From a virus, in the UHGV virus genome UHGV-0108017: a stretch of 25,586 bases of DNA. The stretch is one strand, 5' to 3'. Below, piece by piece: positions 1 through 9,928 of this stretch (position 1 is its first letter; each line of letters starts with the position of its first letter). A model generated the notes under the pieces. It was not told the origin of the DNA. It saw nothing but the letters and a program-made list of their open reading frames with translations, and did not search any database. The position numbers and the translations under genes were made by a program.

Positions 1-54
1 CATATTGGTCATAGCGCTATCCTTCACGGCTGCATTATATAAAGAGGTAAATCA

Positions 55-67
55 TTTGATACTGCTG
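55..67 (+). repeat. left-end repeat copy 1 (TTTGATACTGCTG), candidate transposase-binding site L1
   Basis: 13-bp motif recurs at 159-171 and 201-213 in direct orientation; followed by AAAAATCCGGG, reminiscent of the Mu L1 region as recalled. Confidence 0.5.
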
Positions 68-158
68 AAAAATCCGGGAGGAAAGTGGATCAAACGGGAT
101 TTGATGGGATAAAACAAACAGTTATGACGTAAAACAGTGTTATGCGCACAACATGTGA

Positions 159-171
159 TTTGATACTACTG
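159..171 (+). repeat. left-end repeat copy 2 (TTTGATACTACTG), candidate transposase-binding site L2
   Basis: Exact 13-mer shared with 201-213; 104 bp from copy 1, close to the Mu L1-L2 spacing as recalled. Confidence 0.5.
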
Positions 172-200
172 TCGCAAAGAAAGCTAAAAACGAAAAAATA

Positions 201-213
201 TTTGATACTACTG
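201..213 (+). repeat. left-end repeat copy 3 (TTTGATACTACTG), candidate transposase-binding site L3
   Basis: Exact 13-mer identical to copy 2; 42 bp downstream of it, close to the Mu L2-L3 spacing as recalled. Confidence 0.5.
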
Positions 214-239
214 ATTTCTGCGATTTTAACGTTTTAAAC

Positions 240-281
240 AGGTTAAAAAACCAGCCGCGGGCTATTGGAATTAGCCCGCCT
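240..281 (-). terminator. putative rho-independent terminator of the repressor transcript
   Basis: 8-bp stem GCGGGCTA (257-264) / TAGCCCGC (272-279) with 7-nt loop; on the minus-strand RNA the hairpin is followed by a UUUUUU run (plus-strand A-run 245-250). Stem overlaps the stop codon at 271-273. Confidence 0.45.
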
Positions 282-855
282 TCGATTCTAAACTACTTGA
301 GAGTTTATCGCTTTCAATTTCTGCCAAAATCTCTCTAACTCTTTCATCCGATAAATGATCTAAAAGTAGAGCTGCTGCACGTTTTCGTCCTTCAAGTTGG
401 ATTAGTTCTTGATTCTCTGGTTCAAGTAACCGTGACAAGTACTTAGCTCCATTTAGCGCGAGGATTTTTGATAATCGCTCTGCCTCTGATGCTTCTAAAG
501 CACTTAGTATAGCAAGAAGGCGCTGTAGCGTTATATCTAGGGGCAATTGGACGTTTTCATCTATTTTAGGTGATATTGGTTCTATATCCTCCTTGCCAAA
601 AACAAGCCAATCAATGCTCACCCCTTCTGCAAAAGCAATCTGACCAGCTACTTGTAGAGATGGTGTCGCATCTTTCTCAAAGTAGTTGTTAAGTGTTGAG
701 AACGGTAGCCCCCACGCCTTCGCCACGGCAGTCTTGGAGCGCCCGCGCATTAACATGGCTAGGCGCTCTTTAATGCTTTCTTTTTGAAACACAGGAAAAG
801 AAAAATCACTTTCTTTTTCAGTGCTTCTTTCTTTTCTGTTAACTATATGATTCAT
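271..855 (-). CDS. prophage repressor (Mu c-like by position), HTH DNA-binding protein
   Basis: Only leftward gene, divergent from ner at the left end. Start taken at ATG 853-855 (MNHIVNRKER...); the ORF-track start at 906 is a GTG. HTH-like segment SKTAVAKAWGLPFSTLNNYF. GC much lower than the rest of the window. Confidence 0.6.
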   Translation of the reverse strand: MNHIVNRKERSTEKESDFSFPVFQKESIKERLAMLMRGRSKTAVAKAWGLPFSTLNNYFEKDATPSLQVAGQIAFAEGVSIDWLVFGKEDIEPISPKIDENVQLPLDITLQRLLAILSALEASEAERLSKILALNGAKYLSRLLEPENQELIQLEGRKRAAALLLDHLSDERVREILAEIESDKLSSSLESKAG

Positions 856-995
856 AAAGAAATATCCTTTTGTAGATAAAAACCACCAAAGAAAGAGATA
901 AAACACCTTTACTTTTCTTTTGTAGTGATCAAATATTTATATGTAGAGATTATCCGGCGGTGTTATCCGCGCAGATAACTTTTAAGGATAAACGA
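856..995. promoter_or_regulatory. divergent early promoter / operator region between repressor and ner
   Basis: Repeated TGTAG(A/T)GAT motifs (871-879, 921-929, 942-950), 18-bp near-palindrome GTTATCCGCGCAGATAAC (962-979), IHF-like GATCAAATATTTA (927-939). Confidence 0.55.
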
Positions 996-1232
996 ATGAT
1001 GTCTATAAATGAAGTTGTTAAACAGGACTGGCACCCCGCGCATGTTGTCGCGGCGGTGCATGTAAAAGGTTTTACTTTACGCTCTCTGTCCATTGAAGCC
1101 GGTTTAAACCAGGATTCTTTAAAGAATGCCCTGTACCGCAAATGCCCAAAATATGAGCGCATTATTGCTGATGCTATTGGTGTTGCTCCGGAGGAGATCT
1201 GGCCCAGCCGTTACGCTCGTAAGGTGGTATAA
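996..1232 (+). CDS. ner: Ner-like DNA-binding early regulator
   Basis: ATG 996 with AAGGA 8 nt upstream. Recognisable Ner/Nlp signature (DWHPAHVVAA...GFTLRSLS...IIADAIGVAPEEIWPSRY). Stop overlaps the RBS of A. Confidence 0.8.
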   Translation: MMSINEVVKQDWHPAHVVAAVHVKGFTLRSLSIEAGLNQDSLKNALYRKCPKYERIIADAIGVAPEEIWPSRYARKVV

Positions 1233-1234
1233 AA

Positions 1235-3322
1235 ATGTTTGTATCAGTTAATGAGCTTGTAGGGCTACCAGGTATGCCGGGAACTGCGCAAGGGGTGCGG
1301 TATTCCATAAGGAAACTGGCCTCATCTGAGCATTTCAGGCGCAAACGTGCGGGTTCAAAAACCATTGAATACAGCATCGACTGCCTCCCTCCGATTACAC
1401 AACGGGCGTTACGTGAGCGACATGTAGCTCAACTGATGGCAAGCGCCCCGCAGGAGATAACTACCCAGCCTCCTGTAAAGCGTGAACGCAAACAAAATGT
1501 TGTACAGCCTGTTGAGGCATATCGCGGTTCGCCACAATTGGTAGAAGAGCGTCTGAATGCGCTTACGGAAAATCAACGTAAAGTTGCAGAAGCGCGCATT
1601 GCTCTTGTCTGTGAAGTTCTACGAATTAGCCAGGAGCCGGGATTCAGTTGTGCCAGCGCTATACGTTTTATTGTGTCGCGGTTAGCACAGGGTAACCTGG
1701 AAGAACGCCTGGAATCTTTGGTCATTACTGCTAATGCCCGTAAAGGAAAAGAGCGAACTCTGAGCGCAATTACGCTCAAACGTTGGATAGCTGCGTTTAA
1801 CAAAGCACAGAATGCCGCAGAACGACTGCTGTTACTGGCACCAGGAAAGCGCGACGAAATAAAACCGGAAGAAATTAGCTGGCTGCCTGAATTTCTGGCG
1901 CAGTATCGTCAGGCTAACGGCAGGCCTATGTCTGAAGCCTATGAGGATTTTGTCGCTGATTGGCAGCGTCGCCATGCGGACGAACCATACATGCTGGAGG
2001 TGATGCCTTCCTATGATGTTGTCCGGTATGCCATGAAAAAACTGCCGGAAGTGGTGAAACAAAAAGGGCGCGTTACCGGCAGTGAATACCGTCAGCTTGA
2101 AGGATTCACCCGCCGCGACTGGACAGCTATGCCGGTGAATTATGTCTGGATTGGTGACGGTCACGGTATGAAGCTGAAATGTGCGCATCCGGTTCACGGG
2201 CGTCCATTTTCACCGGAAGTTACGTTTGTGATCGACGGTGGAACCCGGTTTGTGGTTGGCTGGAGTCTTGATCTTGCGGAGAACGTGTTCGCTGTTGCCG
2301 GGGCGATACAACACGGCATTCGCAATCATGGAAAACCATTCCTGTATTACTCGGATAATGGTTCCGGTGAAACGGCAGATATGCTGGATAAAGAGATCGT
2401 CGGGATTCTGCCCCGTCTGGGGATTAACCACCCCACCGGTATTGCGGGAAATCCGCAGGGACGCGGCATTATTGAACGCCTGAACCGAACATTACCGATG
2501 CGTATAGCCAGGAGGTATCGCACCTATTTCGGCAAGGGTGCTGACCGGGAATCGTTGCGAGTACTTAATCGTGATCTGCGTTCAGCGTTTAATGCCCTGC
2601 AACAGGACAAGCCACTGAGCGCCCGTCAGAAAGCCGCAATGCGCGAGCTGCCGTCCTGGTCAGAACTGATTGAGGCTATCCGTGAGGGGGTGGAGTGGTA
2701 CAACAACCGCCCACATTCTGAATTGCCGATGAAACCAAACGGAAAGCATTACAGCCCGGCAGAGTTCAGAAAAAAACGCTTAGCGGAAGAAGACACTGAA
2801 ATTGAGTGGCTGAGTGATCTTGAGCTGCGCGACATGTTCCGCCCGATGGTGGAGCGTCCGGTAAGACGCTGCGAAATCCAGTGGCTGAACAATATTTACT
2901 ACGCGCCAGAGCTGCGTGATGAACATGGTCGCAAAGTACTTATCAGCTATGACATTCACGATGCCGAGCGAATTACGGTACGCCGTAAGGACGGTAGCTT
3001 TATCTGTGAGGCGATATGGAACGGCAATAAACGCGCAGCCTTTCCTGTCACGGCTGAATATCACAAACAACAGCAGCGTATTAAAGGCATGCGCAAGCGT
3101 GCTGAGGAAAAAATTCGTGATGCAGAGGATGAAGGTATTCAGATTCTGGAACACAAACAGGCTGAACCCTGGCTGGATAATGTTTATCGCCCGGTTGGTA
3201 ATACGGTAACCATCCGGCAACAGGATTATGAGGAAGATTACGACGAAGATTATGAACGCGATTTCAGGCTGGGTTTGCAAAAACTTGCAGCCATACAGGA
3301 ACAGGATGATCCGCTGGCCTGA
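1235..3322 (+). CDS. A: DDE transposase (MuA-like)
   Basis: 695 aa immediately after ner. N-terminal winged-helix-like region resembling MuA; candidate catalytic residues D308 (WIGDGH), D375 (YYSDNGSGE), E414 (IIERLNR) by inspection. Confidence 0.85.
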   Translation: MFVSVNELVGLPGMPGTAQGVRYSIRKLASSEHFRRKRAGSKTIEYSIDCLPPITQRALRERHVAQLMASAPQEITTQPPVKRERKQNVVQPVEAYRGSPQLVEERLNALTENQRKVAEARIALVCEVLRISQEPGFSCASAIRFIVSRLAQGNLEERLESLVITANARKGKERTLSAITLKRWIAAFNKAQNAAERLLLLAPGKRDEIKPEEISWLPEFLAQYRQANGRPMSEAYEDFVADWQRRHADEPYMLEVMPSYDVVRYAMKKLPEVVKQKGRVTGSEYRQLEGFTRRDWTAMPVNYVWIGDGHGMKLKCAHPVHGRPFSPEVTFVIDGGTRFVVGWSLDLAENVFAVAGAIQHGIRNHGKPFLYYSDNGSGETADMLDKEIVGILPRLGINHPTGIAGNPQGRGIIERLNRTLPMRIARRYRTYFGKGADRESLRVLNRDLRSAFNALQQDKPLSARQKAAMRELPSWSELIEAIREGVEWYNNRPHSELPMKPNGKHYSPAEFRKKRLAEEDTEIEWLSDLELRDMFRPMVERPVRRCEIQWLNNIYYAPELRDEHGRKVLISYDIHDAERITVRRKDGSFICEAIWNGNKRAAFPVTAEYHKQQQRIKGMRKRAEEKIRDAEDEGIQILEHKQAEPWLDNVYRPVGNTVTIRQQDYEEDYDEDYERDFRLGLQKLAAIQEQDDPLA

Positions 3323-3323
3323 A

Positions 3324-3360
3324 TAAAAAACAGTCCGCGGGAACGGACTGTTAAGTAAAG
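3324..3360 (-). terminator. hairpin between A and B; intrinsic-terminator geometry on the minus strand only
   Basis: Perfect 8-bp stem ACAGTCCG (3330-3337) / CGGACTGT (3344-3351), 6-nt loop; preceded on + by AAAAAA, so the minus-strand RNA has hairpin then U-run. No U-tract on the + strand. Confidence 0.4.
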
Positions 3361-3394
3361 GAAACAAAGCTGATTTGAATAAACGGAGAATAAT

Positions 3395-4327
3395 ATGACC
3401 GATATTAATGATGTTTTCAACACAATTAATGCGCTGATTACTGACGGTGTAAAAACACAAAGCGCTATCGCCAAAGAAGCTGGCGTGTCGGAGGCCACTC
3501 TTTCTGAACTTCGCAAAGGCCGTTACAAAGGCGATACCGAAGGGATGCACAACAAATTACTGATGTGGCATCAGGGCTGGCAGAAAAGTCTGGAGTTGCC
3601 CGGCACCCCACAACTTGTGGAAACACAGACCCTGCGTGATTTGCGTGAACTTTTTCAGACAGTGCGTGTTATGGGGTGTATCAGCGTTCTGGTGGGTGTG
3701 CCGGGGGTAGGAAAAACCGTTGCGGCCCGTGAATACAGTAACCGCGTATCTAATACCTGGATGGTAACCCTTTCCCCTGCACACTCAACGGTGACGGAAT
3801 GTCTGCTGGAACTGGCAGACGCGCTGGGAATTGATAACCCGCAAAGGAATAAAGGCGCGCTGACCCGTGCCATTCGCAAAAAACTGAACGGTACACGCGG
3901 TCTGGTGATTGTGGATGAAGCTGACCACCTGAGCATTGACGGGCTGGAACAATTACGTGCCATTCAGGATGCCACCGGAGTCGGGATGGTATTGATTGGT
4001 AACCCCAGTCAGTTAGCCAAAGCCACACATCGGGGAACGGATGACCTTGCACGTTTGTTCAGTCGTTTCGCCAGGACAAAGCAACTACGTAAAGCCAAAA
4101 AGGCTGACGTGGTGGCAATTGCGAAAGCCTGGGGCATTGAGGGCGAAGATGAATTATCACTCATGCAGAGCATCGCGGAAAAGCCAGGCGCATTGCGTGT
4201 ATTAACTCACACGCTGAATCAGGCGTGGCTGGCAGCCAGCGGGAAAGGCGTTCCTCTGTCCAAAGGCTACATAAAAGCGGCTTTTAAAGAGGTTTACAGC
4301 AACCCGAAATTACTGAACTGGTGGTAA
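3395..4327 (+). CDS. B: transposition ATPase / target DNA activator (MuB-like, AAA+)
   Basis: 310 aa; Walker A GVPGVGKT (K107) and Walker B LVIVDEADHL seen in translation; N-terminal HTH-like region; sits directly after A as in Mu. Confidence 0.85.
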   Translation: MTDINDVFNTINALITDGVKTQSAIAKEAGVSEATLSELRKGRYKGDTEGMHNKLLMWHQGWQKSLELPGTPQLVETQTLRDLRELFQTVRVMGCISVLVGVPGVGKTVAAREYSNRVSNTWMVTLSPAHSTVTECLLELADALGIDNPQRNKGALTRAIRKKLNGTRGLVIVDEADHLSIDGLEQLRAIQDATGVGMVLIGNPSQLAKATHRGTDDLARLFSRFARTKQLRKAKKADVVAIAKAWGIEGEDELSLMQSIAEKPGALRVLTHTLNQAWLAASGKGVPLSKGYIKAAFKEVYSNPKLLNWW

Positions 4328-4341
4328 GGGGATAATAAATA

Positions 4342-4569
4342 ATGATGTCACGAAATATAAAAATGGCAACGGATGCGCAGAACTGGTTACAGGCGCGCGG
4401 GAGTCATGTAAATGAATCATATCTCGGCGTGGCGCGTCCGATTCTTGAAATCACTTACCCACCGGTGGAACTGGTAAAAAACGCGGTCAGAATTATGGAG
4501 CATAAGTCCGGGGTGGCCCGTTCTGTATGGACGGCCCGTTTTAATGGTTGCCAGATAATCTGGAGATAG
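4342..4569 (+). CDS. hypothetical early protein (at the position of kil in Mu)
   Basis: 75-aa ORF with AAGGGG RBS, immediately after B; AT-rich relative to flanking genes. No recognisable motif. Confidence 0.5.
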
Positions 4570-4576
4570 CATTTAA

Positions 4577-4789
4577 ATGATGGTGATAAATATTCACGAT
4601 AATCTGGGAATCAGTAAGTTAATCAACCTTGATAATGTCAGTGTAATGGAAACGACTGTTGAGGGCGGTATTGCTTTTGAATTTATTGATGGTCACCGGC
4701 TGGTCGTTCATGTCGGCAACCATCATCACGCAGAAGATGTGTTTTGGGAACTTAACAAAATCACAAATGCAACACCCGTTAATCAATAA
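4577..4789 (+). CDS. hypothetical early protein
   Basis: 70-aa ORF, tandem ATG start, tightly packed in the early operon; AT-rich; His-rich patch HVGNHHHAED. Confidence 0.45.
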   Translation: MMVINIHDNLGISKLINLDNVSVMETTVEGGIAFEFIDGHRLVVHVGNHHHAEDVFWELNKITNATPVNQ

Positions 4790-4796
4790 GCAGGTA

Positions 4797-5072
4797 ATGA
4801 AAATGGCAAAAGTAATCTTTGAATTTAACAATACAAGAAATATTGAGTTTCAGGATAATGGAGGTTTTGCCGTAAATATGAATGTGCGACTGGAAGAATC
4901 CTCACCTGAGGACCAGACCGGGCCACATGATGTAATGGCAGGCATCATCAAGAGCATGGCTCCTGAAATCATTAAAAAAGCGACCGAGGAGTTGTTGAAA
5001 TCAGCCAGGGAGCTTGGGCTGGAAGCCGAGGGGGAATTATTCAGCTATAACCCGAATGCAGCCAGACATTAA
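4797..5072 (+). CDS. hypothetical early protein
   Basis: Start chosen at ATG 4797 (or 4803) after the stop of the previous gene; the ORF-track entry 4659 overlaps the previous gene. Acidic C-terminal half. Confidence 0.45.
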   Translation: MKMAKVIFEFNNTRNIEFQDNGGFAVNMNVRLEESSPEDQTGPHDVMAGIIKSMAPEIIKKATEELLKSARELGLEAEGELFSYNPNAARH

Positions 5073-5092
5073 TTCACAAAGGAACGCTGACA

Positions 5093-5512
5093 ATGAACGT
5101 CAAAATCCGAAATGAAATTCAGGCATTAATCCGAATTCAGGAACGCAATAACAACGGTGGTGAATTACGCGAGTTTATTTGCGCCCGAAAAGTTGATGAT
5201 TGTGGTGAAAAGACTTACCTGATTGCTTTCGACCATTACAGCATCTGTGCGCGTTATTGCGGCGAAAGCATATCCCGCGCCATTGCATTTGGCGGTGCGT
5301 TCAACGTGGATTTATGGGAGTACGTCATGGACCGGGAATACATCTGCGCATCAGACCCTGAAGCCCGTGAAATGTGGCAGCGTATCTGGCGCGATTACCG
5401 GTTAATGGCAAAAGGCTGGGCGCGCTGCTGTTATTCCTCGCTTGCCCTGAAAGCGGTTCAGTTATCGCTGCGGCATATTCCGGCATCACTGCGCGAGCCT
5501 CTGCTGTACTGA
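5093..5512 (+). CDS. hypothetical cysteine-rich early protein
   Basis: 139 aa, AAAGGA RBS; multiple Cys (CARK, DDCGEK, SICARYCGE, YICASD, ARCC); stop overlaps the next start (TGAATG). Confidence 0.5.
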   Translation: MNVKIRNEIQALIRIQERNNNGGELREFICARKVDDCGEKTYLIAFDHYSICARYCGESISRAIAFGGAFNVDLWEYVMDREYICASDPEAREMWQRIWRDYRLMAKGWARCCYSSLALKAVQLSLRHIPASLREPLLY

Positions 5513-5812
5513 ATGGTGGCTGACATGAAGTGTAATCGTAAGCGCTGGTCACGCGAAGACCGGGAATTTATCGAAGCCAACGTCGGGAAAATGACCGTTG
5601 AAGAAATGGCGGAAAAACTGAAAGTCGCCACAACCGCCCTCCGGGCACATGCCAGAAGGCACGGAATATCATTGTGTGTATACCGAATCAGTGAACACGA
5701 CAAATATTTATGTCGTGAACTTTATAAAGAAGGGCTGGATATTCATGTCATTGCCCGAAAGATGGAATTAAGCAATCGAGCTGTATCCAGCATTGTATAC
5801 AGCGGATATTAA
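5513..5812 (+). CDS. hypothetical early protein with putative HTH-like segment
   Basis: 99 aa (alternative ATG at 5525); segment WSREDREFIEANVGKMTVEEMAEKLKVATTALRAHARRHGIS looks like a small helical DNA-binding fold; translationally coupled to the upstream gene. Confidence 0.45.
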   Translation: MVADMKCNRKRWSREDREFIEANVGKMTVEEMAEKLKVATTALRAHARRHGISLCVYRISEHDKYLCRELYKEGLDIHVIARKMELSNRAVSSIVYSGY

Positions 5813-5831
5813 TTAACAGGAGCTTTAATTT

Positions 5832-6356
5832 ATGGCTAAACCAGCAAAACGCATCAAAAGTGCCGCAGCGGCTTATGTGCCACAAAACCGCGATGCGGTG
5901 ATTACCGATATTAAACGCATCGGGGATTTACAGCGCGAAGCATCACGTCTGGAAACGGAAATGAATGATGCCATCGCGGAAATTACGGAGAAATTTGCAG
6001 CCCGGATTGCACCGATTAAAACCGATATTGAAACCCTTTCAAAAGGCGTTCAGGGATGGTGTGAAGCGAACCGCGACGAACTGACGAACGGCGGCAAAGT
6101 GAAGACGGCGAATCTTGTCACCGGTGATGTATCGTGGCGGGTCCGTCCACCATCAGTAAGTATTCGTGGTATGGATGCAGTGATGGAAACGCTGGAGCGT
6201 CTTGGCCTGCAACGCTTTATTCGCACGAAGCAGGAAATCAACAAGGAGGCGATTTTACTGGAGCCAAAAGCGGTCGCAGGTGTTGCCGGAATTACGGTTA
6301 AATCGGGAATTGAAGATTTTTCCATTATTCCGTTTGAACAGGAAGCCGGTATTTAA
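5832..6356 (+). CDS. gam: Gam, host-nuclease inhibitor (Ku-like DNA end-binding protein)
   Basis: 174 aa; translation (MAKPAKRIKSAAAAYVPQNRDAVITDIKRIG...) matches Mu Gam as I recall it, essentially end to end; AGGAG RBS 9 nt upstream. Confidence 0.85.
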   Translation: MAKPAKRIKSAAAAYVPQNRDAVITDIKRIGDLQREASRLETEMNDAIAEITEKFAARIAPIKTDIETLSKGVQGWCEANRDELTNGGKVKTANLVTGDVSWRVRPPSVSIRGMDAVMETLERLGLQRFIRTKQEINKEAILLEPKAVAGVAGITVKSGIEDFSIIPFEQEAGI

Positions 6357-6398
6357 TACCACCATTAATATTTAATTAATTCACATTCTTTTAATTAT

Positions 6399-6428
6399 GG
6401 CGCGATGCGTCAGGGGATTGCTCGCGCC
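6399..6428 (+). other. GC-rich stem-loop in an AT-rich intergenic region (no U-tract)
   Basis: 7-bp stem GGCGCGA (6399-6405) / TCGCGCC (6422-6428), 16-nt loop, within the 98-bp gap between gam and the next ORF; TTAATTAA palindrome just upstream. Confidence 0.3.
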
Positions 6429-6454
6429 TGAAACATATTACAGAGGAATAAAAC

Positions 6455-6994
6455 ATGGTTGATGCAAAAATTCTGAATGGTGTCAGCACATTATTACGGG
6501 CTTACGGACGCCTGACCTGTGGAGTTCTGGCTGAAAAAATGAATATGCTGCCCTCGTCAATGGTGTATTTCCTGCGTGATGCGGTTGATGCCGGAGTGCT
6601 CACCGAATGCAACGGATTTTATGACGTACCGCGTCCCCGTACAGAGCAGCCTGTAAGACGAAACGCAACTGAGCAGCCTGCTGTTGATGATGCGGTGTGG
6701 TGCAACTGGCGTCGCTCATTACCCTGGGTGGAAGGTAATACCATCCCTGCGCTGGCAAAAGAGTTTGCGACGGGCGTGCTGACCTGTGAGTCAGTCCACA
6801 TTGTTGCTGAGGTGGATAACAGAATGTGCGAACAGGGAATGCCCCGTTTTGTGATGGCTTATATCGATATCCGGCTGGGGCGTTTTATTTGCAGTTCAAG
6901 CGCCTGGAATATCACCGACCATGTACTGCGTTATCTCATCATTGATTTTTCATCAGCACCGGGTGTGGTGCAGGAGGCTGGTTGTGAAATTTGA
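6455..6994 (+). CDS. hypothetical early protein, possible winged-helix N-terminus
   Basis: 179 aa; AGAGGA RBS 7 nt upstream; N-terminal LLRAYGRLTCGVLAEKMNMLPSSMVYFLRDAVDAGVLTE is wHTH-like by eye. Confidence 0.5.
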   Translation: MVDAKILNGVSTLLRAYGRLTCGVLAEKMNMLPSSMVYFLRDAVDAGVLTECNGFYDVPRPRTEQPVRRNATEQPAVDDAVWCNWRRSLPWVEGNTIPALAKEFATGVLTCESVHIVAEVDNRMCEQGMPRFVMAYIDIRLGRFICSSSAWNITDHVLRYLIIDFSSAPGVVQEAGCEI

Positions 6995-7688
6995 AGACTG
7001 GGGTATTGATAAAAGTTGTGGCCGGGACGTCCTGGTGTACAAAAGCTGTAGCGTGATTGAAGGAGAAGATGCCTGGCAGGTTCTGGATATACTTCGTTCT
7101 GCTTTATGCAGAGCTGGCTATGTTACGCCAGCGTCAGTTAATGGCGGAACTGCCACTACCTGTATCAGAAAGCAACTTTATAGTTTTTATACAGCCTACA
7201 ACCGATGGTTAAAGAATGGGGCAATGGAGACGGGCGATGATGTATTTACCCGGGCTGCCGGATTATGTGCCAATGCTTACGATTATTTTGAATCAACCGG
7301 TGCAGACAGTGAAGCCGCATTAGAACAATTACATGCGGACTTTATCTCAGCAGGGCTGAATGAGAAATTGCCATTTAACCGGGACAGCAAACATTACAGA
7401 AACGAAAGCAAATTGGCCAGATGCCACCAGAATTCAGCACGTGTGGCATGGGTTGAAAAACACTGTATTAGTTCTGATTCAGAAATAACGGGGAAAAAGA
7501 CAGTCGGTGAAACATCGTATTCGTGGCTGGGGAAATTTACCACGGTGAAACAGGAATGCCCGACCTGCGGTAATGAATCCCCTGAATATCTGAAAGAGTG
7601 TCCCCATTGTGGCGGGCAGAAATGCAACCACTGTGATATGGGCGATGACACGGCGTGCATGAATTGTGAAGGTGAACAGAATGAATAA
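6984..7688 (+). CDS. hypothetical protein with C-terminal 4x CxxC zinc-ribbon cluster
   Basis: Start proposed at GTG 6984, 6 nt after AGGAGG (6972-6977); the ORF track extends to 6921 inside the upstream gene. C-terminus CPTCGN...CPHCGGQKCNHCD...CMNCEGE. Confidence 0.5.
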   Translation: MKFEDWGIDKSCGRDVLVYKSCSVIEGEDAWQVLDILRSALCRAGYVTPASVNGGTATTCIRKQLYSFYTAYNRWLKNGAMETGDDVFTRAAGLCANAYDYFESTGADSEAALEQLHADFISAGLNEKLPFNRDSKHYRNESKLARCHQNSARVAWVEKHCISSDSEITGKKTVGETSYSWLGKFTTVKQECPTCGNESPEYLKECPHCGGQKCNHCDMGDDTACMNCEGEQNE

Positions 7689-8339: not shown

Positions 8340-8891
8340 ATGAGTCGCACATCCCTGATTAAATTAATCCATGTTGCCCGTCGGGAGCTACAACTCGACG
8401 ACGACACTTACCGCGCTTTTCTGATGCAGAAAACGGGCAAAATCAGTTGCCGCGAGCTTACGGTTACGCAACTGGAACAGGTGCTCGATGCCATGAAAGA
8501 ACGCGGCTTTAAGAAGCTGAATAAATACCCCCGTCGCCGCTTTAAGGGACATGTCACACCCCGCGAGAAGGTGTATAAAATCTGGCAGCAGATGGCAGAA
8601 GACGGTTTTATTACCGATGGCGGTGATGTGGCGCTGGACAGATATGTTCAACGCCTGACCGCGAAACGCAACGGCGGACAGGGTGTTTCCACACTGGCGT
8701 GGTGTCATGGCGACACGCTGCTGACAGTCCTCGAAACACTCAAGCAGTGGCACATCCGCTGTATTCGTGAAGCCTTTTCCCGTCACGGGCTTCCGTTGCC
8801 GGTCAGTCCGTCCGGTCGTGAACTGCGCGGCTATGATGCCATGACGGCGGCTTATGCCCATGCCAGAAAGACACGGAGGATGGCACAATGA
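8340..8891 (+). CDS. gemA: GemA-like protein (Mu gp16 family)
   Basis: 183 aa directly upstream of and overlapping mor, as in Mu; N-terminus MSRTSLIKLIHVARRELQLDDDTYRAFL resembles the GemA family as recalled; GGAGG RBS. Confidence 0.65.
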   Translation: MSRTSLIKLIHVARRELQLDDDTYRAFLMQKTGKISCRELTVTQLEQVLDAMKERGFKKLNKYPRRRFKGHVTPREKVYKIWQQMAEDGFITDGGDVALDRYVQRLTAKRNGGQGVSTLAWCHGDTLLTVLETLKQWHIRCIREAFSRHGLPLPVSPSGRELRGYDAMTAAYAHARKTRRMAQ

Positions 8892-9277
8892 CGGAAGATT
8901 TATTTGGTGATTTGCAGGATGACACCATCCTGGCACATCTTGACAATCCCGCAGAGGATACGTCACGCTTTCCGGCACTGCTGGCGGAGCTGAACGATTT
9001 ACTACGCGGGGAATTGTCCCGGCTGGGTGTTGATCCTGCCCATTCACTGGAGATTGTTGTGGCTATCTGTAAGCATCTGGGCGGCGGTCAGGTCTACATT
9101 CCACGCGGTCAGGTTCTGGACTCGCTGATTCGGGATTTGCGTATCTGGAATGATTTTAACGGTCGCAACGTCAGCGAACTGACCACCCGTTATGGTGTCA
9201 CTTTCAATACGGTTTACAAGGCCATTCGCCGGATGCGACGGCTGAAATACCGCCAGTACCAGCCCTCACTTCTGTAA
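8888..9277 (+). CDS. mor: Mor-like middle-operon transcriptional activator
   Basis: 129 aa; C-terminal region is clearly paralogous to the C-like protein at 10070-10492 (GG-Q-YIP-G...RD...FNGRN..EL); ATGA-coupled to gemA. Confidence 0.8.
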   Translation: MTEDLFGDLQDDTILAHLDNPAEDTSRFPALLAELNDLLRGELSRLGVDPAHSLEIVVAICKHLGGGQVYIPRGQVLDSLIRDLRIWNDFNGRNVSELTTRYGVTFNTVYKAIRRMRRLKYRQYQPSLL

Positions 9278-9282
9278 ACAGT

Positions 9283-9308
9283 AAAGCCGGTTAATCCGGC
9301 TTTTTTTA
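9283..9308 (+). terminator. rho-independent terminator after mor (end of early operon)
   Basis: Stem AGCCGG (9285-9290) / CCGGCT (9296-9301), loop TTAAT, followed by a 7-T run. Confidence 0.7.
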
Positions 9309-9573: not shown

Positions 9574-9928
9574 GCGTTCTGCTCGTCAGTGGCCTGATTT
9601 TTTATCGGTGGTGTTACTGGCGCTGTTATTGTGGATAAGTCTGTTTTGTGGCTGGCGCGCGCTGATGTTTTGCTGTGCCTCGGTTTTCAGTGTTGCTTTA
9701 TGTGTTGCCGGTGATTGTCTGGATGCGCTGATAATGAGCTGCCGGGTGCCTGAACATTTTGCCCGGTTCGTCTGGCCTCTGACCTGGCTGGGGAGTCTGT
9801 CCGGGCTGGGATTAGCCGTGATGGCAACGTCTCAACTGAAAACGGGTCCTGAGCATGTCATCTGGGCGCTGGCCGGATTGCTGACGTTCTGGCTCTCCTT
9901 TCGTTTTCGCGCTCGTCTGTTCGGGTAA
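9563..9928 (+). CDS. predicted multi-pass membrane protein (middle operon)
   Basis: ATG 9563 with GGGAG RBS; hydrophobic segments LSVVLLALLLWISLFCGW, VFSVALCVAG, LGLAVMATS, VIWALAGLLTFWL; Cys-rich. Confidence 0.5.
   Translation: MMSERSARQWPDFLSVVLLALLLWISLFCGWRALMFCCASVFSVALCVAGDCLDALIMSCRVPEHFARFVWPLTWLGSLSGLGLAVMATSQLKTGPEHVIWALAGLLTFWLSFRFRARLFG

What the first reader, a model, noticed from the sequence alone, without database searches (positions are those of the whole stretch)
5513..5812. Small HTH-like protein embedded in the early operon upstream of gam
The segment EDREFIEANVGKMTVEEMAEKLKVATTALRAHARRHGIS looks like a short helix-turn-helix. A regulator inside the early accessory region, next to accessory genes, could act as their dedicated autoregulator (compare Aca-type regulators next to anti-defence genes) or as an anti-repressor.
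Basis: inference. Interest (0 to 1): 0.4.

Follow-up and report, generated by a model that had tools for sequence, protein, structure and literature searches.

The report
Phage Mu gene 9: double-HTH protein
The ORF is the long-annotated but unstudied gene 9 (E8) of a Mu-type transposable phage: a small, probably DNA-binding protein with two helix-turn-helix modules that is conserved across Mu-like phages, and nothing in the sequence supports the idea that it regulates its neighbouring genes.

Summary
Window 5513-5812 (+) is a 99-codon ORF, and its residues 5-99 are 100% identical to gp9/E8/Mup09 of phages Mu and D108. RefSeq already calls it "transcriptional regulator, D5-like". The conserved start is probably ATG 5525, giving 95 aa.

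AlphaFold2 gives two three-helix bundles. The N-terminal module is Myb-like with a basic arm. The C-terminal module is resolvase/IS21/LuxR-like and is the more conserved one. The family is a remote relative of the C-terminal modules of phage T5 protein D5, a DNA-binding protein that affects replication and late expression.

The gene is under purifying selection (dN/dS about 0.15-0.25). It belongs to the conserved early core (ner, A, B, kil, gp9, gemA, mor) of diverged enterobacterial Mu-like prophages and sits between variable accessory slots.

The Aca-like and anti-repressor readings are not supported:
- There is no promoter or operator-like repeat nearby.
- The gene is tightly packed inside the long early operon.
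- The two HTH modules are unlike each other, which fits an asymmetric site.
- The protein is identical in phages whose repressor, Ner and transposase modules are very diverged (repressor not detectably related).

This is an ordinary feature that is already annotated, and its precise function remains untested.

The parts
5525..5812 (+). Most likely gp9 (E8/Mup09) coding sequence, 95 aa plus stop. The annotated alternative start is ATG 5513 (99 aa).
   Evidence: ORF list. Most homologues are 95 aa and align from Met5. The upstream ATG is absent or replaced in L050 and L051. Residues 5-99 are 100% identical to Mu and D108. dN/dS is 0.15-0.25.
5515..5519 (+). GGTGG, a Shine-Dalgarno-like element 5 nt upstream of ATG 5525.
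   Evidence: Read directly from the sequence. L051 has AGGA at the equivalent place. This is an inference, not tested.
5528..5545 (+). N-terminal basic arm KCNRKR (residues 6-11), just before the invariant Trp12.
   Evidence: Alignments A1 and A3: an R/K-rich stretch, R9 nearly invariant, W12 invariant. It is disordered or low-confidence in the model. A minor-groove role is inferred by analogy with homeodomain, Myb and Tc3 arms.
5546..5671 (+). HTH module 1 (residues 12-53): a Myb/SANT-like three-helix bundle with helices 14-23, 29-36 and 40-49.
   Evidence: AF2 model. Profile hits to c-Myb R2R3, SNAPC4 Myb repeats and Cbp2. The same module occurs in up to 12 tandem copies in other proteins. 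Mean column conservation is 0.67.
5690..5806 (+). HTH module 2 (residues 60-98): a resolvase/IS21/LuxR-like three-helix bundle with helices 61-72, 77-83 and 88-97. Signature: HD..LCRELYKEGL.I.VIA.KMELS.RAV. This is the most conserved part.
   Evidence: AF2 model. Foldseek gives sub-2 A local fits over 38-42 residues to the IstA HTH, plus a full-length alignment to the Tc3 bipartite domain; which gp9 module the short fits cover is not stated. Profile positions 110-144 (module 2) match IS5376/IstA, DevR, resolvase and Sleeping Beauty. Conservation is 0.82 overall and 0.92 for helix 61-72.
5093..5512 (+). Context: gp8/E7, the variable accessory gene immediately upstream; its stop abuts ATG 5513.
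   Evidence: (phrog_3690, unknown function). It was seen in 46 of the 86 loci that hold gp9.
5832..6356 (+). Context: gam (host nuclease inhibitor, Ku-like), 19 nt downstream.
   Evidence: Pfam PF07352 E=4e-42. It is replaced by a DUF3164 gene in 30 of 86 loci.
4342..4569 (+). Context: kil. In diverged relatives it is the gene directly upstream of gp9, with a gap of 2-13 nt or an overlap.

Best explanation
This is gene 9 (E8, Mup09) of a Mu-type transposable phage. It is a real early gene, transcribed as part of the long early operon. It encodes a basic protein of about 95 aa (pI about 9.3 for the 99-aa form). The protein has a short basic arm followed by two different three-helix HTH modules: Myb-like, then resolvase/IS21/LuxR-like.

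The most likely mechanism (inferred) is that one molecule binds double-stranded DNA with its two recognition helices in neighbouring major grooves. This is how c-Myb R2R3, Tc3 transposase and the archaeal Cbp proteins bind, so the target would be an asymmetric bipartite site or DNA in general, not a palindrome.

The gene belongs to the conserved core of the early operon, and its closest characterised relative is T5 protein D5, a multi-HTH DNA-binding protein needed for replication and late expression. My best guess for its role is therefore a D5-like accessory factor that acts on phage DNA, either stimulating replicative transposition or tuning the early-to-late programme. I do not think it is a local autoregulator of the neighbouring accessory genes.

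What is shown: the gene's identity, that it is a conserved, selected coding sequence, the two-HTH fold, the remote D5 relationship, and the conservation pattern. What is inferred: DNA binding, the binding mode and the biological role.

The confidence of 0.45 is for the whole statement. By part: identity about 0.99, DNA-binding fold about 0.85, D5-like role about 0.25-0.3.
For: Identity:
- 99.4% and 97.6% nt identity to D108 and Mu over 5093-6356.
- Annotated in Mu as Mup09 / E8, 'transcriptional regulator, D5-like'.
- Residues 5-99 are 100% identical to Mu and D108.

Fold:
- AF2 gives two three-helix bundles at pLDDT 79.
- Foldseek top hits are all HTH DNA binders: the Tc3 bipartite domain, Cbp2, IstA, ArdK, resolvase and Mos1.
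- BFVD hits are small phage HTH proteins and the DNA-binding modules of homing endonucleases.
- Profile against PDB: Cbp2 2e-5, Myb about 6e-4.

Modularity:
- P0024 and L069 carry an extra copy of module 1.
- Relatives of about 150 aa have the order module 1, module 1, C module.
- Other proteins carry 5-12 tandem copies.

D5 relationship:
- PHROG 323 matches gp9 at E=7e-29 (profile positions 142-244), while T5 D5 covers positions 3-270.
- hhalign of the family against T5 D5 gives probability 96% and E=4.7e-9 over 139 columns, including the C module. The c-Myb control gives 87% and 3.8e-6 over 84 columns.
- D5's function is taken from the RefSeq note and from McCorquodale 1979, cited in PMC12630848.

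Core status:
- In prophages with A about 57% and B about 43% identical to the window's, the only early genes still detectable are ner, A, B, kil, gp9, gemA and mor, with or without gam.
- 82 of 86 loci hold kil next to or near gp9.
- Purifying selection acts on both modules.

Association with replication genes:
- In two P2/186-like Vibrio phages a gp9-like gene sits immediately upstream of replication gene A.
- In T5, D5 lies between the ligase and the helicase-primase-polymerase genes.
Against: - There is no experimental datum on gp9. The literature I could search treats the semi-essential-region genes as largely uncharacterised.
- gp9 alone passes no Pfam or NCBIfam gathering threshold.
- No Foldseek hit in the PDB reaches E<=1e-3, and whole-chain TM scores are low (0.3-0.4). 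This is as expected for two flexibly linked domains (pTM 0.49), but it is still weak.
- The D5 similarity is remote, covers only part of D5, and could reflect a shared HTH module type rather than a shared function.
- No conserved non-coding motif that could serve as a binding site was found in the early region of relatives. The only conserved 11-mers lie in coding DNA, at the putative terminator after mor (9293-9307), or at one unplaced site (9859-9869).
- The most conserved surface is helix 1 and helix 2 of module 2, not the recognition helix. This could point to a protein partner instead of DNA.
Confidence: 0.45

Rival explanations
1. Aca-like dedicated autoregulator: gp9 represses a local promoter that drives the adjacent accessory or anti-defence genes (gp6-gp8, gam).
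For: - It is an HTH protein flanked by variable accessory genes.
- In phage Mu (not in this window), E6/Mup07, two genes upstream of gene 9, is the counter-defence gene gnarl2.
- gam, directly downstream, inhibits host nuclease.
- A conserved regulator next to variable cargo is the Aca pattern.
- ArdK, a plasmid HTH protein, appears among the Foldseek hits (37-38% identity over about 40 residues).
Against: - No sigma-70-like promoter on the + strand in 4300-7200.
- No operator-like repeats near the gene.
- The gaps flanking gp8 and gp9 are only 20 nt (5073-5092), 0 nt and 19 nt.
- The whole region is one early transcript in Mu (PMC3325207 and PMC3820752).
- Two unlike HTH modules in one chain, rather than a single-HTH dimer.
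- No hit to Aca-type Pfam families.
- In relatives gp9 directly follows kil, with no accessory gene between them.
Confidence: 0.1
2. Anti-repressor or immunity-control function (for example the genetically defined 'cim'): gp9 inactivates or counteracts the phage repressor or acts at the operators.
For: - It is an early-operon HTH protein.
- An immunity-control function (cim) is listed among the functions of the semi-essential early region (PMC4553209). To my knowledge it has not been tied to an ORF.
Against: - gp9 is 100% identical in the window, Mu and D108. Meanwhile the window's repressor is not detectably related to Mu c (Mu c finds no repressor gene in the window; the 271-906 minus-strand ORF reads by inspection like a Cro/CI-type HTH protein) and Ner is only 46% identical. 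A specific partner or operator would be expected to co-vary.
- No similarity to the ANT, KilAC or Bro families.
Confidence: 0.05
3. Sequence-specific transcription factor for targets elsewhere: host promoters, or the phage Pe/Pm/late promoters. In this reading it reprogrammes expression rather than acting on replication.
For: - The RefSeq and PHROG label is 'transcriptional regulator'.
- It resembles sigma region 4, LuxR, GcrA and Myb modules.
- The recognition helix of module 2 is well conserved (0.82). This is compatible with a conserved target, for example in the host.
Against: - The Mu cascade as described in the papers read here needs only Mor and C for the middle and late genes (annotations; PMC12867686). 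That it is regarded as complete without gp9 is my own knowledge.
- No conserved candidate site was found in the phage early region.
- Nothing distinguishes this reading from the best explanation without experiments.
Confidence: 0.2
4. Protein-binding adaptor: the HTH folds serve as a protein-interaction surface, for example with Kil, Gam/DUF3164, RNA polymerase or a host factor, rather than binding DNA.
For: - The most conserved elements are helix 1 and helix 2 of module 2 (0.92 and 0.83), more than any helix of module 1.
- Tight kil-gp9 juxtaposition in relatives (gap of 2-13 nt or overlap) suggests co-expression.
- gp9 is always followed by gam or DUF3164.
Against: - Net basic charge and a basic N-terminal arm.
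- All structural neighbours are DNA binders.
- Helix 1-2 conservation can be explained by the fold core.
- In P2-like phages the neighbours are different.
Confidence: 0.12

Closest known systems
Phage Mu / D108 gp9 (E8, Mup09; NP_050613), annotated 'transcriptional regulator, D5-like'
   Same: It is the same protein: residues 5-99 are 100% identical, with the same position between gp8/E7 and gam.
   Different: Only the surroundings differ. The window's repressor/ner/A/B module is of the Yersinia phage vB_YpM_5/6 type, and its gp6/gp7 are of D108 type, not Mu type.
Phage T5 protein D5 (T5.118, 255 aa), a DNA-binding protein required for DNA replication and late transcription
   Same: Same PHROG (323). 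hhalign gives probability 96% and E=4.7e-9, with the same module order (Myb-like module(s), then a C module with an IAEK motif). It is an early gene.
   Different: By my reading of its sequence, D5 has about four HTH modules, plus N- and C-terminal extensions. gp9 corresponds only to profile positions 142-244. Identity is about 27% by BLASTP (E=0.002 for the pair). No functional data exist for gp9.
Bipartite or tandem HTH DNA-binding domains: c-Myb R2R3, Tc3 transposase N-terminal domain (1U78), archaeal CRISPR-repeat-binding Cbp2 (2LVS)
   Same: Two three-helix HTH modules on a short linker, with a basic N-terminal arm. These are the best sequence and structure matches.
   Different: The matches are weak (E from 2e-5 to 1e-2; TM 0.3-0.4). 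gp9's two modules are of different types. No DNA target is known.
Aca (anti-CRISPR-associated) regulators
   Same: A small phage HTH protein located next to variable accessory genes.
   Different: No promoter or operator of its own, not a single-HTH dimer architecture, and no family match.

Membership tests
Mu gp9/E8 orthologue group | Near-identical sequence and the same position (after gp8 or kil, before gam or DUF3164) in a Mu-type early operon | tested here: met
   100% identity over residues 5-99. Synteny.
T5 D5-like (PHROG 323) | Significant match to the PHROG 323 profile | tested here: met
   E=6.9e-29, profile positions 142-244 of 319. Caveat: Mu gp9 is probably itself a member from which the profile was built.
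T5 D5-like (PHROG 323) | Direct similarity to T5 D5 itself with the same module order | tested here: met
   hhalign probability 96%, E=4.7e-9, 139 columns. The control with c-Myb is weaker. BLASTP for the pair gives E=0.002.
T5 D5-like (PHROG 323) | Full D5 architecture (about 255 aa, about four modules) | tested here: not met
   gp9 has two modules and 95-99 aa.
T5 D5-like (PHROG 323) | Binds dsDNA; needed for replication and late gene expression | not testable with these tools
   Known for D5 only from the RefSeq note and from McCorquodale 1979, cited in PMC12630848.
Aca-type autoregulator | HTH DNA-binding fold | tested here: met
Aca-type autoregulator | Own promoter in front of a short anti-defence/aca operon | tested here: not met
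   No + strand sigma-70-like site in 4300-7200. The gene is packed inside the early operon. This was a consensus scan only, so weak promoters could be missed.
Aca-type autoregulator | Inverted-repeat operator overlapping that promoter | tested here: not met
   Only chance-level repeats. The hairpin at 6399-6428 lies after gam and is not in a promoter.
Aca-type autoregulator | Membership in a described Aca family (Aca1-13) | tested here: inconclusive
   No Pfam hit to Aca-related families such as DUF1870. No dedicated Aca library is available.
Phage anti-repressor | Homology to the ANT, KilAC, Bro-N or other anti-repressor families | tested here: not met
   No such Pfam or PHROG hits.
Phage anti-repressor | Specificity that tracks the immunity type | tested here: not met
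   The protein is identical in phages whose repressors are not detectably related.
Myb/SANT-like HTH repeat | Three-helix bundle with a conserved Trp and hydrophobic core; passes the Pfam Myb threshold | tested here: inconclusive
   W12 is invariant and module 1 is a three-helix bundle. A family profile hits c-Myb at about 6e-4. gp9 alone has no Myb Pfam hit. Multi-repeat relatives P0033 and P0048 exceed the whole-protein cut-off.

The most novel reading that the evidence does not exclude
gp9 could be the product of one of the genetically defined functions of the semi-essential region, which to my knowledge have never been assigned to an ORF. The most attractive candidate is 'arm' (amplification of Mu replication). 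In this reading gp9 is a miniature D5-like DNA-binding factor that boosts replicative transposition or couples it to later gene expression. The same module family would do the same job next to the replication genes of P2/186-like and T5-like phages.
Probability: 0.12. Interest if true: 0.45.

Novelty: already known. Interest (0 to 1): 0.18.

Why it matters
As it stands this matters little. The ORF is a reference-genome gene that already carries an HTH or 'regulator' label.

The modest added value is in four points:
- The protein has two unlike HTH modules, not one.
- It is one of the few semi-essential-region genes conserved across diverged enterobacterial Mu-like phages, and it is independent of the immunity and transposase module.
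- Its closest characterised relative is T5 D5.
- Relatives sit beside replication genes in other phage types.

Together these make gene 9 a sensible first candidate when someone tries to assign the old 'arm' or 'cim' phenotypes of Mu to genes. They also argue against using it as an Aca-style marker for anti-defence genes.

Tried and rejected
- **Pfam, NCBIfam and PADLOC on gp9 alone.** Only sub-threshold generic HTH hits came back (RWP-RK, HTH_Tnp_1, Sigma70_r4_2, Cbp1, ECF sigma). None is usable for family assignment.
- **phmmer against the PDB.** Only Cbp2 at E=0.04. The family profile was needed to get significant hits.
- **Promoter and terminator scan, and repeat search around the gene.** Nothing above chance.
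- **Rfam on the whole window.** No hit.
- **Search for conserved non-coding 11-mers shared by the window and 11 diverged loci.** The hits lie in coding DNA (A, gp9), in the putative terminator after mor (9293-9307), or at one unplaced site (9859-9869). No candidate gp9 site emerged.
- **Internal repeat test between the two halves of gp9.** Not significant (score 21 against shuffles of 19 +/- 3.7). The two modules are therefore not a recent duplication.
- **Apparent positive selection on module 1 in L050 (dN/dS 1.4).** This turned out to be a +1/-1 indel pair, that is, a frameshifted stretch.
- **Genome-contig scan.** It failed with the broad alignment A2 and found only 6 loci with A3.
- **Literature searches.** Searches for gp9, E8, Mup09, arm and cim found no functional study of this gene. 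Several ids were not held.
- **Clamp-binding motif idea, prompted by PMC12867686.** gp9 contains no glutamine, so it has no QL[SD]LF-type motif (by inspection of the sequence).

Full report
**What is there**

Window 5513-5812 (+) is an ATG-initiated ORF of 99 codons. The stretch 5093-6356 is 99.4% identical to phage D108 and 97.6% identical to phage Mu. In the Mu reference genome the same ORF is Mup09 = gp9 = 'E8'. It lies between gp8/E7 and gam (Mup10) and is labelled 'transcriptional regulator, D5-like' in RefSeq. Residues 5-99 are 100% identical in the window, Mu and D108.

gam is confirmed by Pfam (PF07352, E=4e-42). The gene after gam is gp11 (PF25754).

The start codon needs a correction. 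Most homologues are 95 aa and begin at the second Met. Diverged relatives lack the upstream ATG. ATG 5525, preceded by GGTGG at 5515-5519, is therefore the likely start, although Mu's annotation uses 5513.

**Is it a real gene?**

Yes. Homologues were recovered in 80 IMG/VR loci and 6 species-representative genomes. Pairwise dN/dS against the window is about 0.15-0.25 in both halves of the protein, at dS from 0.2 to 1.7. The one outlier, L050, is explained by a compensating +1/-1 indel pair.

**Fold and family**

AlphaFold2 with a 13-sequence alignment gives mean pLDDT 79. It predicts two three-helix bundles: helices 14-23, 29-36 and 40-49, then helices 61-72, 77-83 and 88-97.

The low pTM (0.49) and low whole-chain TM scores fit two flexibly linked domains. 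Foldseek hits in the PDB are all HTH DNA binders:
- the Tc3 transposase bipartite domain (E=0.012);
- the CRISPR-repeat-binding protein Cbp2 (2LVS);
- the IstA HTH (rmsd 0.6-1.8 A over about 40 residues);
- ArdK, resolvases and Mos1.

None of these reaches E<=1e-3. In BFVD, 13 hits have E<=1e-3. Among the hits to E<=1e-2, those that carry a name are mostly uncharacterised small phage proteins, plus homing endonucleases and transposases.

gp9 alone passes no curated Pfam or NCBIfam threshold. A family profile does better. It finds Cbp2 (E=2e-5), c-Myb R2R3 and SNAPC4 Myb repeats (4.5e-4 to 1.8e-3) for module 1. For module 2 it finds only weak hits (E 0.03 to 0.8) to IS21-family, DevR, resolvase and Sleeping Beauty HTHs.

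A full-database profile search found 4,806 proteins. Many carry 5-12 tandem copies of module 1. Relatives of about 150 aa have the order module 1, module 1, C module, and one has module 1 followed by two C modules. The family is therefore built from shuffled HTH modules, and gp9 is the minimal two-module member.

Module 2 is the more conserved part: mean column conservation is 0.82 against 0.67 for module 1. Its first helix (HD..LCRELYKE) is the most conserved element at 0.92. The two halves of gp9 are not detectably similar to each other.

**Relationship to T5 D5**

The RefSeq label comes from PHROG 323. gp9 matches that profile at E=7e-29 over positions 142-244, and T5 D5 itself covers positions 3-270.

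A direct comparison of my family alignment with T5 D5 gives probability 96% and E=4.7e-9 over 139 columns. The alignment includes the C module (D5 '...MTVAEIAEKTGKSERGVKSML') in the same order. A control with c-Myb R2R3 is weaker and covers only module 1 (87%, 3.8e-6).

gp9 is therefore a remote, truncated relative of D5, equivalent to its last two modules. D5 is described as a DNA-binding protein required for replication and late transcription (RefSeq note; McCorquodale 1979, cited in PMC12630848).

**Context and conservation**

The window is a mosaic. From kil rightwards it is Mu/D108-like. Its left-end module is different:
- The A/B module resembles Yersinia phage vB_YpM_5/6.
- Compared with Mu, A is 24% identical, B 44% and Ner 46%.
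- Mu c detects no repressor gene in the window. The minus-strand ORF at 271-906 reads, by my inspection only, like a Cro/CI-type HTH protein.

gp9 is nevertheless identical across these phages. It does not co-vary with the immunity or transposition module.

In diverged enterobacterial prophages (A about 57% and B about 43% identical to the window's) the only early genes still detectable are ner, A, B, kil, gp9, gemA and mor, sometimes with gam. gp6, gp7, gp11 and gp12 are absent there, and gp8 gives only one weak partial match (L059). In those prophages gp9 follows kil, with a gap of 2-13 nt or an overlap, or after one inserted small ORF.

Of 86 loci with gp9, 82 hold kil. The next recognisable gene downstream is gam in 52 loci and a DUF3164 gene in 30, never both. 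gp9 is thus a conserved core gene sitting between two variable accessory slots.

That the neighbourhood is truly 'accessory' is supported by the literature. Mu E6/Mup07 is gnarl2, an O-antigen-related counter-defence gene (bioRxiv 10.1101/2023.04.06.535777). The window itself carries D108-type gp6/gp7, not the Mu type.

Outside Mu-like phages, two P2/186-like Vibrio phages carry a gp9-like gene immediately upstream of replication gene A. In T5, D5 lies within the replication cluster.

For an Aca-like autoregulator one expects a promoter of its own with an inverted-repeat operator. The evidence runs against this:
- The consensus scan finds no + strand promoter in 4300-7200.
- The repeat search finds only chance-level matches.
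- The region 5073-5092 is a 20-nt ribosome-binding gap.
- The region 6357-6454 lies after gam. It holds an AT-rich stretch and a GC hairpin without a U-tract. The hairpin is conserved as a structure at the left edge of a variable gene slot, but it is not a promoter operator.
- The gene is tightly packed in an operon that published work treats as one long Pe transcript.

For an anti-repressor, specificity should track immunity type, and it does not. The HTH observation therefore stands, while the proposed roles are not supported. They are also not excluded by experiment.

**Most likely mechanism**

Shown:
- a conserved, selected early gene;
- two unlike HTH modules with a basic arm;
- net basic charge (pI 9.3);
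- a remote relationship to D5;
- recurrent placement next to replication or transposition genes.

Inferred:
- One molecule binds dsDNA in the manner of Myb R2R3, Tc3 or Cbp, on an asymmetric site or with low specificity.
- It acts as a D5-like accessory factor on phage DNA metabolism or on the timing of expression.

I put the DNA-binding fold at about 0.85 and the D5-like role at about 0.25-0.3. No candidate binding motif emerged from comparing relatives.

The strongest alternative hints are two. Helix 1-2 of module 2 is more conserved than any helix of module 1, which could mean a protein partner. gp9 is also tightly coupled to kil.

**Novelty**

The feature is already known as an annotated gene with an HTH or regulator label. 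No functional study was found in the searchable literature. The most novel reading left open is that gp9 accounts for the 'arm' replication-stimulating function, which to my knowledge is unassigned (PMC10052514). This is speculative (about 0.12).

Noticed in passing
window 6357-6454 (hairpin GGCGCGA...TCGCGCC at 6399-6428): The gap after gam holds an AT-rich stretch and a GC-rich hairpin with no U-tract. Its first 76 nt or so are 92-100% conserved in about 48 loci, even where the following gene differs (at least five different downstream ORF starts). In diverged lineages (L067, L075, L081) a different GC hairpin sits at the same place. This looks like a conserved RNA or DNA boundary element at the left edge of a variable gene slot. 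The folding z-score alone is not significant (-1.49).
   Followed up: partly
window 1-4330 versus 4330 onwards: The window is a mosaic Mu-type genome. The repressor, ner, A and B are of the Yersinia phage vB_YpM_5/6 type (A 24%, B 44% and Ner 46% identical to Mu; Mu c detects no repressor gene in the window). From kil rightwards the window is about 97% identical to Mu/D108. The junction lies in the B-kil gap near 4330.
   Followed up: partly
window 4577-5072: The two small genes between kil and gp8 are D108-type gp6/gp7 and have no detectable similarity to Mu gp6/gp7. The published counter-defence gene gnarl2 (Mu E6/Mup07) is therefore not present here. The kil-to-gp8 interval is a swap-prone accessory slot even among very close relatives.
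   Followed up: partly
loci L055-L082 (e.g. L055:5590-6207): Directly downstream of gp9, gam (52 loci) and a DUF3164 gene (30 loci) are mutually exclusive alternatives. This suggests DUF3164 may be a functional substitute for Gam. A conserved 158-168 aa protein with no Pfam family often follows (e.g. L055:6288-6785).
   Followed up: partly
proteins P0033, P0034, P0043, P0048, P0053 (metagenomic): Hundreds of unnamed proteins consist of 5-12 tandem copies of the same Myb-like HTH module as gp9 module 1 (W..EE..L....G....EIA..LGRS..SV..RA..LGL). They have no dedicated Pfam family and only summed generic HTH hits. This is a possible uncharacterised class of long tandem-HTH DNA-binding proteins.
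   Followed up: no
L088:6539-7150 and L090:4857-5309 (Vibrio P2/186-like prophage and phage): gp9-like or D5-like proteins lie immediately upstream of the P2-type replication gene A. The one in L088 has, by inspection, a Cys-rich zinc-ribbon-like N-terminus.
   Followed up: partly
L050:4096-4395: This copy of gene 9 carries a +1 and a -1 indel about 60 nt apart, which frameshifts about 20 codons of HTH module 1. It is either a decaying copy or an assembly error.
   Followed up: yes
window 9293-9307: AATCCGGCTTTTTTT is the only non-coding 11-mer-plus stretch conserved in all 11 diverged loci compared. It lies just after mor (8888-9277) and looks like the 3' half and U-tract of an intrinsic terminator, possibly the end of the early transcript.
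   Followed up: no
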